Assembly: GCA_963737155.1 (NCBI GenBank)
Contig: CAVTRN010000002.1
Coordinates: forward strand, 1,984,001 to 2,048,000
Direction: 5' to 3'
Origin: Nitrospirota bacterium
GTDB taxonomy: Bacteria > Nitrospirota > UBA9217
DNA: 64,000 nt
The notes beneath the pieces were generated by a model, which had not been told where the DNA came from, did no database searches, and was given only the letters and a program-made list of their open reading frames with translations. A program made the translations under genes and the position numbers. Of the stretch, positions 25,436-37,932 are shown piece by piece (the first letter of the stretch is position 1; the number at the start of each line of letters is the position of its first letter).

Positions 25436-25521
25436 GCCGCTGTGGCGGAATTGGCAGACGCAAGAGACTTAAAATCTCTCGACGGGCAACTGTCGTACCG
25501 GTTCAATTCCGGTCAGCGGCA
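25436..25521 (+). tRNA. tRNA-Leu (anticodon TAA)
   Basis: Acceptor stem GCCGCTG/CAGCGGC, anticodon arm AGAGA-CTTAAAA-TCTCT, long variable arm, GGTTCAATTCC T-arm; followed by CTA, not CCA. Confidence 0.95.
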
Positions 25522-25759
25522 CTACAAAATCAACGGTTTATCCACTCTCATCCAATATGGATATGGATCTTCCTCAAACCCACACAATGTGGCGCGCAGG
25601 TTAGGCTCGGTGGTTTTATTCGGCGTCCTCAACCCTAGCTTGAAGACATCTGATTATAATCAGTCAAATATGAGCGAGCACTGGTAATCTTTTTATCTTT
25701 TTAATCTCCTTTGCACTTGGTGAGTGTGTTACATGATATAGATCCCAAGCTAACTGCAA

Positions 25760-26824
25760 GTCATGACCACCGGCGTAGCCGGTGGCTTGCTTAAGCCCCA
25801 TAGGGGCAGTGTTACTTGCACCCCTTAAGGGGTTATCTTCTTTTTCTGTCCATCGTGGTGCACTTGGCTGTTCCGATAGCCATTTGTAGGCGACAACCGG
25901 AACGGGGACGATTCTGACGATGATGTCCCCGCTGAATTTCAGAAAAAGGCGCACTTGAATAGTGAGTACGTTCCCTGCGGCCACGATCTCTATTAGGCTG
26001 ATTTTTAAGGTTGTAGTGGGTCTGAAGCCAAATAGACGCGTTCTTCGATAGAACCTCCAAGATTGAGGTAAAGGAAATATAGCATAAATTCACAAGAAAA
26101 GGACAAAATTGGCTTTTAAGGTAAGGTCAAAAACATCGAAAGCCTGTTTCCAACACCGAGGACACGGCCGCTATAATCGTCCCCGAAATCACCGATGCTA
26201 ACACCATTCGCGTCACGTGGTTTATTGCTGCTAATTGCTCTTGCTACGGGCACCCCTAGAAGGGGTCATGGACATCCCGATCATACTTATCCACAATTGC
26301 TTCGTTGATTTCCTGATCCTTGATATATTTCCGTATTTTCGCTTCATCCAGCCCCACCGTACTGACATAGTACCCGCGTGCCCAAAAACTATGACCTTTG
26401 AAATTCCGCTTGTGTTTGCTGTACCGTTCAAACACAATCATCGCGCTTTTTCCCTTTATATACCCCACAATGGTCGCTACTGCATACTTGGGCGGTATCG
26501 ACAGACACAAATGGATGTGGTCTATACAGGCTTTCCCTTCCAAAATGCCCACCCCTTTGTATTCGCACAACCGACGCACAGTATCGGGCCAACTTCCTGT
26601 CGAAGCCGTCCGTATATGACTTTTCTCCTGAGCTTCGGCACAAATACAATATGGTATTTACATTCATGGACTGTGTGTGCTAAACTTTCCTTCACCTGGT
26701 TGCTCCTTTCTTACGATGACCATCGGAACAGCGGTCTTATTGTAGGAAAGGAGCTTTTCTTTTTCAAATACTACAGCATAGCTTTTTCTATTCTCCCCGG
26801 CGAAGCCGGGGGTTTAGCTTTGGA
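25760..26824 (-). mobile_element. IS200/IS605-family element (tnpA only) with extra internal sequence
   Basis: Absent from higA copy 2; no target duplication; subterminal hairpins CCACCGGC-GTA-GCCGGTGG and CCCCGGC-GAA-GCCGGGG. Confidence 0.9.
26256..26695 (-). pseudogene. tnpA: IS200 Y1 HUH transposase TnpA with a +2 frameshift near 26580
   Basis: ECKYHIVFVPKLRRK, DHIHL (HUH), FWARGYYVSTVG, YIKDQ; GTG start with AAGGAG RBS. Confidence 0.9.
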
Positions 26825-27064
26825 ATTAAGCCAAAACTGCGCCTCCATGCCGAACAGTTTTTCTAAGCGAAGTGCGGTATCTGGGGTATACCCCGCTTTC
26901 CATGAATTAACTCATTAACACGGGGATATGAAACCCTGAGTTTATCTGCCAAATCACTCTGCGTTATCTTAAGTGGTTTGAGAAAATCTTCCAATAGCAT
27001 TTCGCCAGGATGCATCGGCGGACCATTTTTAGGTATGCGAATCATTTTTTACCTCCTTACTTAT

Positions 27065-34215: not shown

Positions 34216-34391
34216 ACCACGAGGAGAGAATATTTGGATCGGGGAGGTTGTCGGAATGACACTTATCAAGTCTGCCTGCAATTGTCTACTTGCGTTTTTT
34301 GGCGGCTTGAACTGACCCCCTCTGTTTAGACAAATTATGTTAGACTATCAGGCAGGATCCCCGGCCCGGGATGGGCAGAAAGGATCTTGTC

Positions 34392-36104
34392 ATGAGAAAA
34401 CAGAGAAGTTTCAGCATCGAGTTCAAGCGCCAAGTAGTTGAAGAATATCTGAGCGGTGCCGGTACTGCGGCCCAGCTCTGCCGAAAACATAGCATTTCTT
34501 CCGGACTTTTATATCATTGGAGACGGCAATATCTTAAAAACAGCTTTGAAGCCGATTCAGCCCGGGAAGTTGCCCAGGAAGAACGGATTCGCCTATTGGA
34601 ACAGGCACTTGAAAAAGCCCACCTGGAGGTTGAGTTTTTTATAAAAAGCTCTGCATCAGAGCTTCGAACAGTCCCGGAAAAAAGGAAGTTCATTACCGAC
34701 AACCGAAACTTTATCGAAACCCTCACGAGGGGGTGCGAACTCATGAACCTCCCTCGAAGCAGTTACTACTATAAGCCGAAGCTCCGGGAGATATCTCCTG
34801 AGGACCAAGCCCTTATCTCGCGGATCGAAGGGCTCGCCGAGGACTTCGCTACGTACGGCTACCGAAAGATCACGGCTCAGTTGCGCCGGTATGGCATTGT
34901 GGTCAACCGCAAGAAAGTTCAGCGGATCATGCGGGAAAAGGGTCTTTTTGCGAAGAAGACTCGACGGTTCGTCAAAACCACAGACAGCAACCACCCTTAT
35001 CCCGTATACCCGAACCTGCTCAAAGGCCTGAAGGTGACAGGCGTCAATCAGGCCTGGGTTGCTGATATCACTTATAGTGCGCCCAGCCAACGATACCTGC
35101 CTGTATGGGGGTGAAGTTGCTTGAGCATGTTTGGAATGCATTCTCTAAAGATGTAATAGTGAGCATGCCCTCTTTCCGCTACGGGAAGGAGTGAGCCGAA
35201 GCGGCGGTGATTTGCCGAACACTGGCAAGGTGACGAAGCCCGCAGGAAACGGGACTTGCGGCGAAGCGGTTACGCCAAGATGAGTCTCTAGGATGAGCAC
35301 GGGACGGTTGAGGAACACGAACCTATTGAAATGCATCTGAGGGTTGAAATGTCACCCCTGCCTACACCGCTTAACAGGCAGGATGCGGATTGGCACCAGC
35401 CATATGTAGGGAGCTGGGCTGCGAATGTTGACTGGATGAGTGAGCTGGTCAGCAGGGAGCCTCGGGAAGTGCGTAGCTAAACTGAGGCATGCGCAACGAC
35501 TTGCGGTACGCAAGGATAAAGACTGCTATAGGCAACCTCGCCCGTGCGTTTGAGTCCAACATGTGAACTGGGGAAGGCTTGCACAGATGCTAAGGGAGTG
35601 TGTCCCCGATGATGTGCAAGCTGGCGGAGCCCTCGTAGTAGTCCTAGGCCGGGAAAGCCGGTCACATGGCGAAGGGGGGCAGTTCAAGCAGTTTGCTAGG
35701 CTGCTTAGCTGACTTTAATGAGGTGAAGACCTCTGATAATCAGTGAAATGCAAAGCAAGCAGGCGAAGAGATTTCGCTTTTGCATTGAGCAATGCTTGGA
35801 TGGAGAGCCGGATGCGCTGAGAGGTGCAAGTCCGGTTCGGAGAGGAGAGGTCGGGAAATAGCTCGACTACGCCCGACCTCTTACTCTACTCCGAATCGTT
35901 GCTTCCTTCGTTTACCTTGCCGTCATTCTGGACCTGTACTCAAGGAAGGCGATTGGATACGCCATCTCCCGGTCTATCGATACGGACTTAAGCCTTGCCG
36001 CGCTTCAGATGGCCATCGAAACAAGGAATCCCCGTGCCGGGCTGATCCATCACTCGGACCGGGGCGTGCAAATACGCAGCACACGACTACGTTGACGTAC
36101 TCAC
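34392..36104 (+). pseudogene. IS3 OrfAB transposase in two exons (34392-35076, 35890-36104)
   Basis: FSIEFKRQVV, RSSYYY, YGYRKIT, WVADITY|IRIVASFVYLAVILDLYSRKAIGY...IHHSDRGVQ; then frameshifted and truncated before the catalytic Glu. Confidence 0.9.
35077..35889 (+). ncRNA. ORF-less group II intron (813 nt)
   Basis: 5' GTGCG; domain V GAGCCGGATGCGCTGAGAGGTGCAAGTCCGGTTC at 35805-35838; domain VI ending CTCTAC; removal restores the transposase frame. Confidence 0.93.
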
Positions 36105-36126
36105 GAAGACATCTGATTATAATCAG

Positions 36127-36444
36127 TCAAATATGAGCGAACACTCGTAATCTTTTTATCTTTTTTATCTCCTTTGCACTTGGTGAATGCCTTACATGAT
36201 ATAGGTCCCAAGCTAACTGCAAATTAAGCCAAAACTGCGCCTCTATGCCGAATAGTTTTTCTAAGCGAAGTGCGGTATCTGGTGTTATACCCCGCTTTCC
36301 ATGAATTAACTCATTAACACGCGGATATGAAACCCCGAGTTTATCTGCTAAATCACTCTGCGTTATCTTAAGTGGTTTGAGAAACTCTTCCAATAGCATT
36401 TCGCCAGGATGCGTCGGCGGACCATTTTTAGGTATGCGAACCAT
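36127..36444 (-). CDS. higA: HigA antitoxin (intact)
   Basis: THPGEMLLEEFLKPL, KRGITPDTALRL, FWLNLQLAWDL. Confidence 0.93.
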   Translation of the reverse strand: MVRIPKNGPPTHPGEMLLEEFLKPLKITQSDLADKLGVSYPRVNELIHGKRGITPDTALRLEKLFGIEAQFWLNLQLAWDLYHVRHSPSAKEIKKIKRLRVFAHI

Positions 36445-36813: not shown

Positions 36814-37932
36814 TATTAACCGTCTCATAATAGTATTGACATAATCTTGCATCTGTGGTATAGTATTTCTCATGAAGAAAAAAGCAGATGCGAGAAATCT
36901 TGACCATAAAACTCTGACTGAGCTGAGAAAGCGTGCGGTAAATAGTGTCCAGGAAGGACAAAGCCCCGAACTGGTGGCCAAAGCTCTGGGTATAAATCGC
37001 GTCACCATCTATGGCTGGTTGGCACGATATCGAAACGGGGGCTGGGGTGCTCTTGATGCCAACAAACGAGGCGGCCGTCCACCAAAAATGGATGCTAAGG
37101 CTATAGAGTGGGTTTATCGTACCGTGACCACGAAAAATCCGCTTCAGTTGAAGTTTACCTATGCCCTGTGGACAGCGAAGATCATTGGGCAGGTAATATA
37201 TAAGCGATTTGGTATGAGATTGAGCAAAGCATCCGTTTGTCGTTTGCTGGGACAGTTGGGATTGACTCCACAGCGTCCTGTTTGGCGTGCCTATCAGCAA
37301 AAGCCGGCAGCGGTTCAGGAATGGCTGGAGAAGGAGTATCCTCGGATACGAAGCATGGCGCGTCGCATGAAGGCTCAAATCTTCTTCGGAGATGAAGCTG
37401 GCGTTCGCTCTGATCATCATGCGGGCACCACTTGGGCCATGAAAGGTGAGACCCCGATTGTGAGCAGCACAGGAGCGCGCTTCGGATTGAATATGATTTC
37501 GGCTGTTAGTGCACAAGGCGAATTTAGGTTCATGGTAGTCAAAGGTCGCGTAGCGTCGCAGCAATTTATTGAATTCATAAAGCGGCTTATTCAAGGCAGC
37601 AAACGGATGATATTTCTCATCGTTGATGGTCATCCGTCACACAAGTCTCGCAAGGTTTCTAACTATATTGAAACCATTAAGGAAAAGTTTCGTCTGTTCT
37701 TTTTACCGCCGTATTCTCCAGAGCTGAATCCCGATGAGAGAGTCTGGAATGACCTGAAGAACAATGCAGTTGGTCGTCAGGCAATTAGTTCACCGGAACA
37801 ATTACATGGTGCAGTAGTCAGTCATTTGAGGTTTATCCAAAAGTCTCCTGATCGTGTGCGTGCTTACTTTAATAACGAGACAACAAAGTATGCGGCATAA
37901 TTAATGTTAATACTATTATGAGACGATTAATA
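36814..37932 (+). mobile_element. Complete IS630-family element with duplicated TA target
   Basis: IRs TATTAACCGTCTCATAATAGTATTGACA and TGTTAATACTATTATGAGACGATTAATA; absent from cassette copy 1. Confidence 0.95.
36872..37900 (+). CDS. IS630-family transposase (intact, 342 aa)
   Basis: HTH, FFGDEAG, IVDGHPSH, LPPYSPELNPDE. Confidence 0.96.
   Translation: MKKKADARNLDHKTLTELRKRAVNSVQEGQSPELVAKALGINRVTIYGWLARYRNGGWGALDANKRGGRPPKMDAKAIEWVYRTVTTKNPLQLKFTYALWTAKIIGQVIYKRFGMRLSKASVCRLLGQLGLTPQRPVWRAYQQKPAAVQEWLEKEYPRIRSMARRMKAQIFFGDEAGVRSDHHAGTTWAMKGETPIVSSTGARFGLNMISAVSAQGEFRFMVVKGRVASQQFIEFIKRLIQGSKRMIFLIVDGHPSHKSRKVSNYIETIKEKFRLFFLPPYSPELNPDERVWNDLKNNAVGRQAISSPEQLHGAVVSHLRFIQKSPDRVRAYFNNETTKYAA

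What the first reader, a model, noticed from the sequence alone, without database searches (positions are those of the whole stretch)
34308..36104. ORF-less group II intron inserted beside the first catalytic Asp of an IS3 transposase
Seen: an 813-nt insert starting GTGCG and ending CTCTAC, with a canonical AGC-triad domain V, splits WVADITY|IRIV; removing it rejoins the frame exactly. The intron-encoded protein is reduced to stubs (LIISEMQSK near 35735-35760 joined to RDFAFALSNA), implying a deletion of the RT/maturase ORF. A candidate EBS1 TATAGG (35527-35532) pairs with exon IBS1 CTTATA. Established: group II introns that home into IS3-family elements are known (E.c.I4/S.f.I1 in IS629). Inference: this is a non-autonomous ribozyme targeting a conserved transposase motif, which could spread using a maturase supplied in trans.
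Basis: partly seen in the sequence, partly recalled or inferred. Interest (0 to 1): 0.7.

Follow-up and report, generated by a model that had tools for sequence, protein, structure and literature searches.

The report
ORF-deleted group II intron in dead IS3
An 813-base self-splicing-type intron that has lost its own reverse-transcriptase gene sits at its family's usual target inside a broken IS3 jumping-gene copy; it is a real but probably stranded relic of a known kind of mobile intron.

Summary
Window 35077-35889 is an 813-nt group II intron (Rfam domain V/VI, 62 bits; six-domain consensus fold). It splits WVADITY|I of an IS3-family transposase. A metagenome contig of a related IS3 lacks exactly these 813 nt.

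The ORF loss is confirmed. A same-genus sibling at the same site, and 14 full-length relatives (2276-2294 nt), carry a ~512-aa RT/maturase. The window keeps only its first 12 and last 9 codons, a deletion of about 1.47 kb.

The lineage resembles E. coli E.c.I4 (class A), which published work places in IS3-like transposases. Here 52 of 80 related loci are flanked by IS3-like exons.

Better candidates are EBS2 35349-53 and EBS1 35405-10 or 35439-44.

Trans-mobilisation is unsupported for this copy:
- the genome holds one copy and no cognate maturase;
- its only group II RT gene is 31% identical and interrupted;
- the host IS3 is frameshifted and truncated.

It is most likely an immobile relic.

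At least five independent ORF deletions in this family end at the same domain IV stem. One 819-nt derivative is 99.8-99.9% identical in three contigs whose host exons differ by 5-11%.

An overlapping window of this scan flagged the same stretch.

The parts
34308..35076 (+). Left end and 5' exon of an IS3-family element. The orfA and orfB frames are fused into one ORF (34371-35076 continues into the intron).
   Evidence: Homology to two other IS copies starts at 34307/34308. Pfam HTH_Tnp_1 and HTH_21. ORF list.
34634..34648 (+). Former frameshift site. It is one base longer than in the C1 and G003 copies, so orfA and orfB read through without slippage.
   Evidence: Read by eye against the sequences printed.
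35064..35068 (+). IBS2 candidate GATAT (exon positions -13 to -9; codons of the catalytic Asp and Ile).
   Evidence: Best complementarity of 2440 position/offset combinations, mean 5.18 of 6 over 45 sequences. 5 of 5 pairs in the window.
35071..35076 (+). IBS1 CTTATA (exon positions -6 to -1).
35077..35889 (+). ORF-less group II intron, 813 nt.
35082..35572 (+). Domain I (consensus fold).
   Evidence: RNAalifold on the window plus 14 relatives with ORF columns removed.
35349..35353 (+). EBS2 candidate ATGTC in a conserved hairpin loop.
35405..35410 (+). EBS1 candidate TGTAGG (loop 1). It makes 6 of 6 pairs with CTTATA, two of them G-U.
   Evidence: Mean 4.80 of 6 over 45 sequences, rank 2 of 678. 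29 of 5000 permutations reach the observed value. Position 1 covaries with exon -1: C-G in 11, U-A in 10.
35439..35444 (+). Second EBS1-like loop. It reads AGTGAG here and TGTAYG in relatives; four window-specific changes lie in 35438-35443.
   Evidence: Mean 4.87 of 6, rank 1 of 678. 20 of 5000 permutations reach the observed value. Window-derived changes are listed.
35527..35532 (+). It lies in a conserved, paired stretch of domain I.
35573..35625 (+). Domain II.
35629..35680 (+). Domain III. It carries a window-specific T at 35645, where all 15 relatives and the laid contigs have G.
   Evidence: table 3.
35682..35801 (+). Domain IV, reduced to 120 nt.
35733..35768 (+). N-terminal stub of the RT/maturase ORF (L I I S E M Q S K Q A K). 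The start codon TTG has changed to CTG.
   Evidence: Alignment to L014 and 14 relatives.
35761..35779 (+). Short hairpin that caps the domain IV stem at the deletion junction (35768|35769).
   Evidence: RNAfold of domain IV. Junction comparison.
35770..35799 (+). C-terminal stub of the ORF (D F A F A L S N A), in another frame than the N stub. The former stop TGA now reads TGG.
   Evidence: Alignment.
35805..35838 (+). Domain V, with AGC at 35806-35808.
35841..35887 (+). Domain VI, with a bulged A at 35883.
35890..36104 (+). 3' exon: the rve (integrase core) part of the IS3 transposase. It has an extra A in the run 36070-36072 and is cut off at 36104, before the rest of the catalytic domain.
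   Evidence: Pfam rve. One base left out at 36072 in an X5 contig, and loose ends at 36070 and 36103 where other contigs run on with sequence unlike the window. Homology to a second higA region starts at 36105.

Best explanation
This is an ORF-deleted derivative of a bacterial class A-type (E.c.I4-like) group II intron. That lineage retrohomes into the codons for D-I-T-Y at the first catalytic Asp of IS3-family transposases, using EBS2 against GAYAU and EBS1 against CNUAYR.

A full-length parent of about 2.3 kb lost about 1.47 kb of domain IV. Both strands of the stem that encloses the ORF were kept, so the ribozyme scaffold (domains I-VI) is complete.

In its present setting the element is most likely stranded. 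It cannot make a reverse transcriptase/maturase, the genome encodes no cognate one, it is present once, and the IS3 copy around it is frameshifted and truncated, so nothing selects for splicing.

Shown: the identity, the boundaries, the deletion, the target preference of the lineage, and the absence of a cognate maturase gene in the assembly. Inferred: the class A assignment, that it is immobile now, and that the deletion arose by a jump across the domain IV stem.
For: Identity and boundaries:
- Rfam domain V/VI match, 62 bits.
- Six-domain consensus fold with 242 of 253 consensus pairs intact in the window.
- An empty-site contig joins 35076 to 35890.

Deletion:
- The same-genus sibling L014 has the same IS3, the same site and the ORF start.
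- 14 full-length relatives of 2276-2294 nt carry an ORF of up to 512 aa (open frame read in L020) that scores RVT_1 and GIIM, with no endonuclease domain.
- Stubs and junction were mapped.

Target:
- Of 80 related loci, 52 have IS3-like exon homology in register on at least one side and 32 on both sides.
- In nearly all of the 45 sequences examined (most chosen by that exon homology), the intron follows GAY-NNN-NCN-TAY plus one base.

Link to E.c.I4:
- The E. coli relative L061 is 73% identical in the first 220 residues of the intron protein.
- L061 is the ykfC locus of K-12. PMC3522654 lists one E.c.I4 fragment in MG1655.

Stranded:
- One full copy plus a 3' fragment (homology about 170 nt by eye; BLAST hit 114 nt) that still carries ORF codons.
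- PF00078 and PF08388 find a single RT-bearing group II intron gene (plus one short isolated GIIM fragment at C1:876562-876771). That gene is 31% identical and is split by a ~345-nt insert with inverted ends.
- The host IS3 has a frameshift and is truncated.
- The window lineage has 29 derived changes at conserved sites, against 16 in L014. It has 11 broken pairs, against 0-7 in relatives.
Against: - The ribozyme is only mildly degraded. Many window-lineage differences from the 14 relatives are compensatory double changes, for example 35172/35189, 35177/35184, 35300/35544, 35690/35793 and 35851/35876.
- Domain V/VI scores higher than any other copy in the genome.
- EBS2-IBS2 (5 pairs) and an EBS1-IBS1 (6 pairs) are still possible.
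- The domain IV stem, the usual protein-binding region, is kept.
- ORF-less relatives elsewhere appear to have spread, so this type of derivative can be mobile.
- The assembly has two contigs. A plasmid carrying a cognate maturase could be missing.
- No RNA data exist for or against splicing.
- The class A label rests on identity to an E. coli copy plus a paper's listing, not on a phylogeny made here.
Confidence: 0.75

Rival explanations
1. It is a live non-autonomous retroelement. The ORF-less intron is still spliced and mobilised in this organism by a maturase/RT supplied in trans.
For: - The domain IV stem, the EBS-IBS pairs and most helices are kept.
- In metagenome contigs L098, L100 and L102 an 819-nt ORF-less relative is 99.8-99.9% identical, while the 5' host exons are 89-95% identical and the outer flanks are unrelated.
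- A second, unrelated 690-nt ORF-less intron in this genome has two copies 99.3% identical at different sites.
- Passages of PMC2882425 document this behaviour in Thermosynechococcus.
Against: - There is a single copy in the 4.84-Mb assembly.
- There is no cognate protein. The only group II RT gene is 31% identical and interrupted.
- The exact junction is absent from the metagenome collection and from 400 other genomes of the phylum.
- 60 relatives searched with the whole intron gave only the ORF-bearing sibling and short pieces.
Confidence: 0.07
2. It is a splicing-only intron. It is immobile but still excises, by itself or with host factors, like C.te.I1 of Clostridium tetani.
For: - The catalytic core is intact and 242 of 253 pairs are kept.
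- The boundaries match the family consensus.
- Passages of PMC4424553 describe one bacterial ORF-less intron without any related protein in its genome.
Against: - Splicing would only restore a frameshifted, truncated transposase reading frame, so there is no selection to keep it.
- There are window-specific changes at otherwise invariant unpaired positions, for example 35645 and 35438-35443.
- Bacterial introns of this kind generally need their maturase in vivo (recalled general knowledge).
Confidence: 0.15
3. It is an assembly artefact. The ORF was lost by a collapse or mis-join in the assembly of a repeated element.
For: Mobile elements are often mis-assembled. The sibling in G003 ends at a contig end.
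Against: - Contigs of run X1 bridge the 5' junction (34909-35132), and together the deletion junction and the 3' junction (35648-35905), with 0-2 differences. X1 may, however, be the source sample.
- The junction forms a clean hairpin.
- Independent relatives show the same kind of deletion.
Confidence: 0.02

Closest known systems
E.c.I4 / S.f.I1 (bacterial class A group II introns of Escherichia and Shigella)
   Same: - Both insert at a specific conserved position of IS3-like transposase genes (IS629, IS911, ISEc16, ISEc31 per passages of PMC3522654).
- The intron protein lacks an endonuclease domain (PMC3552965 passage; Pfam on relative L020).
- The first 220 residues of the sibling protein are 73% identical to the E. 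coli K-12 ykfC copy.
   Different: - The window copy has lost the ORF.
- It comes from a different, uncultured-type lineage (soil and wetland metagenome holders).
- Its closest ORF-bearing relatives are 82-90% identical at the DNA level and come from a same-genus genome, Nitrospirota, Acidithiobacillus and Burkholderiales records.
TeI3 ORF-less introns of Thermosynechococcus elongatus
   Same: Both have a deletion of about 1.5 kb in domain IV that removes most of the ORF and leaves N- and C-terminal remnants (PMC2882425 passages). Both are derived from an ORF-containing parent.
   Different: - TeI3 introns are a different class (IIB1).
- They are present in 17 copies with one shared breakpoint.
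- They have been shown to be mobilised by proteins of sibling introns in the same genome.
- Here there is one copy and no sibling protein.
C.te.I1 of Clostridium tetani
   Same: Both are ORF-less bacterial group II introns in a genome without a related intron protein (PMC4424553 passage).
   Different: C.te.I1 lies in an expressed surface-layer gene and splices. The window intron lies in a defective IS copy, and its splicing is untested.
RmInt1 of Sinorhizobium meliloti
   Same: Both are bacterial group II introns without an endonuclease domain whose natural home is a transposase gene of an insertion sequence (titles and abstracts listed).
   Different: RmInt1 is a different class with a different IS family as target, and it is ORF-containing and active.

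Membership tests
Group II intron (ribozyme) | Domain V hairpin with catalytic triad, followed by domain VI with a bulged adenosine | tested here: met
   RF00029 at 62 bits, against a gathering score of 40, E 8.7e-10, full model 1-77. AGC at 35806-35808. Bulged A at 35883 in the consensus fold.
Group II intron (ribozyme) | Consensus ends (5' GUGYG, 3' AY) and precise exon junction | tested here: met
   GTGCG ... TAC. The frame is restored on removal. An empty-site contig joins 35076 to 35890.
Group II intron (ribozyme) | Six helical domains around a central wheel | tested here: met
   RNAalifold of the window plus 14 relatives gives six top-level helices. 242 of 253 pairs are canonical in the window. 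No Rfam domain I-IV family matched, even at E <= 1.
Group II intron (ribozyme) | EBS1-IBS1 and EBS2-IBS2 pairing with the 5' exon | tested here: inconclusive
   The EBS2 candidate 35349-35353 is the top of 2440 combinations. Two loops, at 35405 and 35439, rank 2 and 1 of 678 for IBS1, and both show weak covariation. Which of the two is EBS1 is not settled.
Group II intron (ribozyme) | Splicing through a lariat | not testable with these tools
   No RNA run was listed.
Bacterial class A (E.c.I4-like) introns | Intron protein of the class A clade, without a DNA endonuclease domain | tested here: inconclusive
   The relative's protein has RVT_1 and GIIM only. It is 73% identical to the E. coli K-12 ykfC copy, which I equate with the E.c.I4 fragment listed for MG1655 in PMC3522654. 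No phylogeny with class references was made.
Bacterial class A (E.c.I4-like) introns | Homing site in the conserved region of IS3-family transposases | tested here: met
   52 of 80 related loci are flanked by IS3-like exons in register. The site follows the DITY codons.
Mobile ORF-less (non-autonomous) group II introns | Several copies with the same deletion at different sites | tested here: not met
   One copy in the genome. Junction 24-mer: 0 matches in the metagenome collection. 0 of 400 other genomes of the phylum.
Mobile ORF-less (non-autonomous) group II introns | A related intron protein encoded elsewhere in the same genome | tested here: not met
   PF00078 and PF08388 searches and tblastn found only a 31%-identical, interrupted gene and two stubs.
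IS3 family insertion sequence (host element) | orfA (HTH) plus orfB (rve, DDE) and terminal inverted repeats | tested here: inconclusive
   HTH_Tnp_1, HTH_21 and rve are found. The left end is shared with other copies. The right end and the last part of the catalytic domain are missing.

The most novel reading that the evidence does not exclude
Class A IS-homing introns may repeatedly give rise to ~0.8-kb mini-introns through a structure-guided loss of everything inside the domain IV stem, for example a reverse-transcriptase jump across the stem during cDNA synthesis. These derivatives would then spread through IS3 and IS6 transposase genes as parasites of full-length introns. The window copy would be a fossil of that process.

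Evidence so far:
- Five ORF-less lineages each have a different ORF-bearing intron as nearest relative.
- Four of the five junctions lie within a few bases of the stem apex.
- One derivative is nearly identical in diverged host elements.

Caveat: two of the five lineages were found with a pattern that required a short domain IV.
Probability: 0.3. Interest if true: 0.55.

Novelty: new member of a known kind. Interest (0 to 1): 0.35.

Why it matters
[quoted passage not shown] This copy is a clear example without such a partner. It therefore records how a retroelement ends: the ORF is lost, the host IS decays, and the ribozyme outlives both for a while.

The side result may matter more than the copy itself. 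Independent ORF deletions in this family end at the same stem, and one derivative is shared by diverged IS copies. That gives a testable route from autonomous introns to small non-autonomous ones, a step often invoked in accounts of intron evolution.

Tried and rejected
- RNA evidence: the look-up of sequencing runs listed no RNA holder, so splicing could not be examined.
- Rfam at E <= 1 gave no domain I-IV family for this intron.
- Mutual information between intron columns and exon positions was noisy and was not used beyond the 35439/-1 signal.
- EBS2 in the loop 35434-35446: considered and dropped. No register pairs well with exon positions -7 to -14, and the loop at 35349-35353 does better.
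- A GNRA tetraloop at the junction: considered. RNAfold gives a 5-nt loop instead.
- The idea that the 114-nt match at C2:1696248 came from the ORF-less copy: rejected. Its homology to full-length relatives runs further 5' into ORF codons.
- Orthology of the window and G003 copies: rejected. Homology starts at the IS end, and the G003 flank matches nothing in this genome.
- PMC2525955 (Simon et al. 2008) is not held. I know it only from other papers' reference lists.
- Han 2004 was not seen. It is cited only from the reference list of PMC3522654.
- Supplementary tables of PMC3522654 (insertion positions) and figures of PMC2882425 were not available and may bear on the target-site and breakpoint comparisons.
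- NZ_CP178306.1 is not in the E. coli collection. I searched by similarity instead.
- I did not determine the organism's taxonomy.
- I did not search the papers library specifically for recurrent domain IV breakpoints. The statement that this pattern is new is therefore not made.
Full report
**What is there**

Window 35077-35889 is an 813-nt insert that begins GTGCG and ends CTCTAC. Rfam's group II intron model (domains V and VI) matches 35803-35889 over its full length at 62 bits, E 8.7e-10. It is the only RNA family in the window besides a tRNA.

Removing the insert rejoins GAT ATC ACT TAT A|TC, which reads W V A D I T Y I R I V. The upstream ORF scores HTH_Tnp_1 and HTH_21, and the downstream piece scores rve. 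The host gene is therefore an IS3-family transposase. That the D of DITY is the first catalytic Asp of the DDE triad is recalled knowledge, not tested here.

The boundaries have independent support. When contigs of four public runs were laid on 34300-36200, one contig of run X5 joined 35076 directly to 35890 (skips 813, ends GT..AC). This contig has 10 differences in its 171 left-hand bases and 3 in its right-hand part. It is an intron-less copy of a related IS3. Contigs of run X1 bridge both splice junctions and the deletion junction with 0-2 differences, but X1 may be the sample the window came from.

**The ORF was deleted**

- Within the window's own 4.84-Mb genome the whole intron occurs once.
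- Among 61 genomes searched (G000 plus 60 relatives), 4 had a match. A same-genus genome, G003 (locus L014), matches intron positions 1-692 at 90%.
- In L014 the same IS3 carries the intron at the same site. An ORF starts MIISEMQSKLAKWSTKEKERKF... exactly where the window reads LIISEMQSKQAK. That ORF is frameshifted, and the contig ends inside it.
- A scan of named genomes with this protein kept 80 loci. Fourteen close ones hold complete introns of 2276-2294 nt, with an ORF of up to 512 aa (open frame read in L020) that scores RVT_1 and GIIM and has no endonuclease domain.
- Alignment shows that the window follows these relatives up to 35768 and again from about 35769, so about 1.47 kb is missing.
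- The last nine ORF codons survive as DFAFALSNA (35770-35796), in a different frame from the N stub. The stop TGA has become TGG.

**The fragment elsewhere in the genome**

C2:1696248-1696361 matches the last 114 nt at 92%. Aligned with full-length relatives, its homology runs on into the last ~25 codons of the ORF (tblastn 72.7% over 22 residues). It is a 5'-truncated remnant of an ORF-containing intron, not a second copy of the ORF-less one.

**Target preference of the lineage**

- Of the 80 loci, 39 have a tblastn match to the window's 5'-exon peptide that ends within one residue of the Y of DITY, and 45 have a match to the 3'-exon peptide that starts within its first 8 residues.
- 52 have one or the other, 32 have both, and 28 have neither. 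Several of the 28 are short contigs.
- In nearly all of the 45 sequences whose 5' boundary I could place, the intron follows GAY-NNN-NCN-TAY plus one base; two sites look ectopic. Those 45 comprise the window, L014, 38 loci chosen by that tblastn match and 5 placed by DNA homology.
- This agrees with the literature. [quoted passage not shown] A passage of PMC3552965 calls the E.c.I4 and S.f.I1 proteins class A and counts them among those lacking the endonuclease domain.
- The E. coli locus in my list (L061, 73% identity over 220 residues) is the ykfC locus of K-12. PMC3522654 lists one E.c.I4 fragment in MG1655.
- I therefore file the window intron as class A-like by inference, without a phylogeny.

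**Ribozyme state**

An RNAalifold consensus of the window plus 14 relatives, with ORF columns removed, gives six top-level helices:

| Domain | Window coordinates |
|---|---|
| I | 35082-35572 |
| II | 35573-35625 |
| III | 35629-35680 |
| IV | 35682-35801 |
| V | 35805-35838 |
| VI | 35841-35887, bulged A at 35883 |

- Of 253 consensus pairs, 242 are canonical in the window and 11 are broken. The relatives have 0-7 broken pairs.
- Many window-lineage differences from the 14 relatives are compensatory double changes.
- Polarised with the 14 relatives, the window has 29 derived changes at conserved sites against 16 in its sibling L014.
- These include changes at positions invariant in all others: 35645 in domain III, and 35438-35443 in a conserved loop.
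- This is mild decay, not wreckage.
- The 5' GTGCG differs from the GTACG of the closest clade but matches more distant relatives.

**Exon-binding sites**

- Across 45 sequences it averages 3.44 of 6 and ranks 37th of 678. It shows no covariation: 4301 of 5000 permutations reach the observed value.
- Two hairpin loops carry YGUAKG complementary to the exon's CNUAYR. The loop at 35405-35410 (TGTAGG) makes 6 of 6 pairs in the window; its mean is 4.80, and 29 of 5000 permutations reach the observed value. The loop at 35439-35444 has a mean of 4.87, and 20 of 5000 permutations reach the observed value; it is mutated in the window to AGTGAG, 5 of 6 pairs. I could not decide which one is EBS1.
- ATGTC at 35349-35353 pairs with GAYAU, the Asp-Ile codons. 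It is the best of 2440 position/offset combinations, with a mean of 5.18 of 6. I take it as EBS2.

**Can it still move or splice here?**

- PF00078 and PF08388 searches of the genome find one RT-bearing group II intron gene, at C1:831228-832967, plus a short isolated GIIM fragment at C1:876562-876771.
- Its protein is 31% identical to the cognate type.
- It is split between the PQG and GVISP motifs by a ~345-nt insert with ~91-nt inverted ends.
- The host IS3 copy is dead. An extra A lies in 36070-36072, where a related X5 contig lacks one base. Homology to IS3 stops at 36104, where X5 contigs run on with sequence unlike the window. From 36105 the window repeats a higA region found at 25642-25737.
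- The deletion junction as a 24-mer has no match in the metagenome collection.
- A looser pattern found it in 0 of 400 other genomes of the phylum.
- No RNA run is listed.
- The simplest reading is a stranded relic.

**What relatives add**

- The looser pattern (ORF start within 30-60 nt of domain V) found five metagenome contigs.
- L098, L100 and L102 carry an 819-nt ORF-less intron with one shared junction. L101 has a junction 4 nt longer. L099 has a different junction.
- The three 819-nt copies are 99.8-99.9% identical. Their 5' host exons, an IS6-like WRVDETY| transposase, are 89.5-94.7% identical over 304 nt, and the sequence beyond is unrelated. L100 has an rve-type 3' exon instead of the IS6-like one. 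Spread, or exchange between copies, after the deletion is the simplest account.
- A similarity search of plasmids found further derivatives. L105 (Bradyrhizobium) is joined at the same stem apex but truncated at both ends. L104 (Caballeronia) has similar end points with filler. L106 (Mycetohabitans) has a different internal deletion.
- Each ORF-less lineage has a different ORF-bearing intron as nearest relative: window-L014 90%, L098-L027 87%, L099-L043 81%, L105-L066 93%, L104-L025 93%. The deletions are therefore independent.
- In full-length relatives the ORF lies inside a stem, GGCGACRU paired with AYGUCGCC, with a covarying case in L035 (read). Four junctions fall at its apex.
- Caveat: the pattern search could only find short domain IV versions.
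- The same anatomy, a ~1.5-kb deletion in domain IV with N- and C-terminal remnants, is described for the TeI3 introns (PMC2882425 passages).

**Novelty**

- ORF-less bacterial group II introns are known and catalogued (PMC4424553 and PMC8919778 passages). IS3-homing by this lineage is also known.
- The window element is a new member of a known kind.
- It is unusual mainly in lacking any related protein in its genome, which the 2015 review calls the exception. It is probably not functional.

**Earlier notes of this scan**

Earlier notes flagged the same stretch and the ORF scar, and noted other ORF-less intron-like pieces in this genome.

Noticed in passing
G000 C2:1595642-1596331 (+) and C1:364818-365521 (-); partial copy C2:456975-457471: A second, unrelated ORF-less group II intron of about 690 nt (starts GTATGCC, domain V/VI 46.3 bits). 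Two copies are 99.3% identical at different sites, each just after a hairpin. The C2 copy splits a ~150-nt repeat that is uninterrupted in 25 or more other places. This looks like recent mobility of an ORF-less intron in a genome without an intact intron protein.
   Followed up: partly
G000 C1:831228-832967, insert about 831940-832286: The genome's only group II intron RT/maturase gene is split between RT motifs by a ~345-nt insert with ~91-nt imperfect inverted ends (a MITE-like element). Its domain V scores 39.2 bits, just under the Rfam cut-off.
   Followed up: partly
G000 C1:1327189-1327265 (-) and C2:1404197-1404273 (-): Two further domain V/VI matches (48 and 32.6 bits) have no RT nearby. 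They are 74% alike over ~280 nt and are probably short intron relics. Earlier scan notes describe mini intron relics in this genome.
   Followed up: no
G000 C1:74867-75622 (-): A second copy of the same IS3 (88.7% identical) ends within GATATCACC, about 5 bases before the intron insertion site, and runs into unrelated sequence. This may be coincidence or a deletion linked to a former intron; it is not resolved.
   Followed up: partly
window 34634-34648: The A-rich frameshift site of the IS3 is one base longer than in the C1 and G003 copies. As a result orfA and orfB are fused in one frame in this copy.
   Followed up: partly
window 36105-36200 and 25642-25737: A 96-nt direct repeat (93.8%) marks two higA-like antitoxin gene ends. 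The copy at 25664-27045 is interrupted by an IS200/IS605-type transposase gene and lies about 120 nt after a tRNA gene (25436-25521). The copy at 36127-36444 abuts the truncated IS3 and is followed by a HigB-like frame that seems disrupted and by an IS630-like transposase (36872-37900).
   Followed up: partly
L100:3479-4297 (metagenome contig): The 819-nt ORF-less intron has an IS6-like 5' exon (WRVDETY) but an rve-type 3' exon of another IS family. This suggests recombination between two intron copies that sit in different insertion sequences.
   Followed up: partly
L014:877-1500 (G003): The sibling IS3 copy has a 133-nt internal deletion in orfA and sits at a non-homologous locus. Its IS part and intron part are both about 90% identical to the window, as if the IS and the intron diverged together.
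   Followed up: partly
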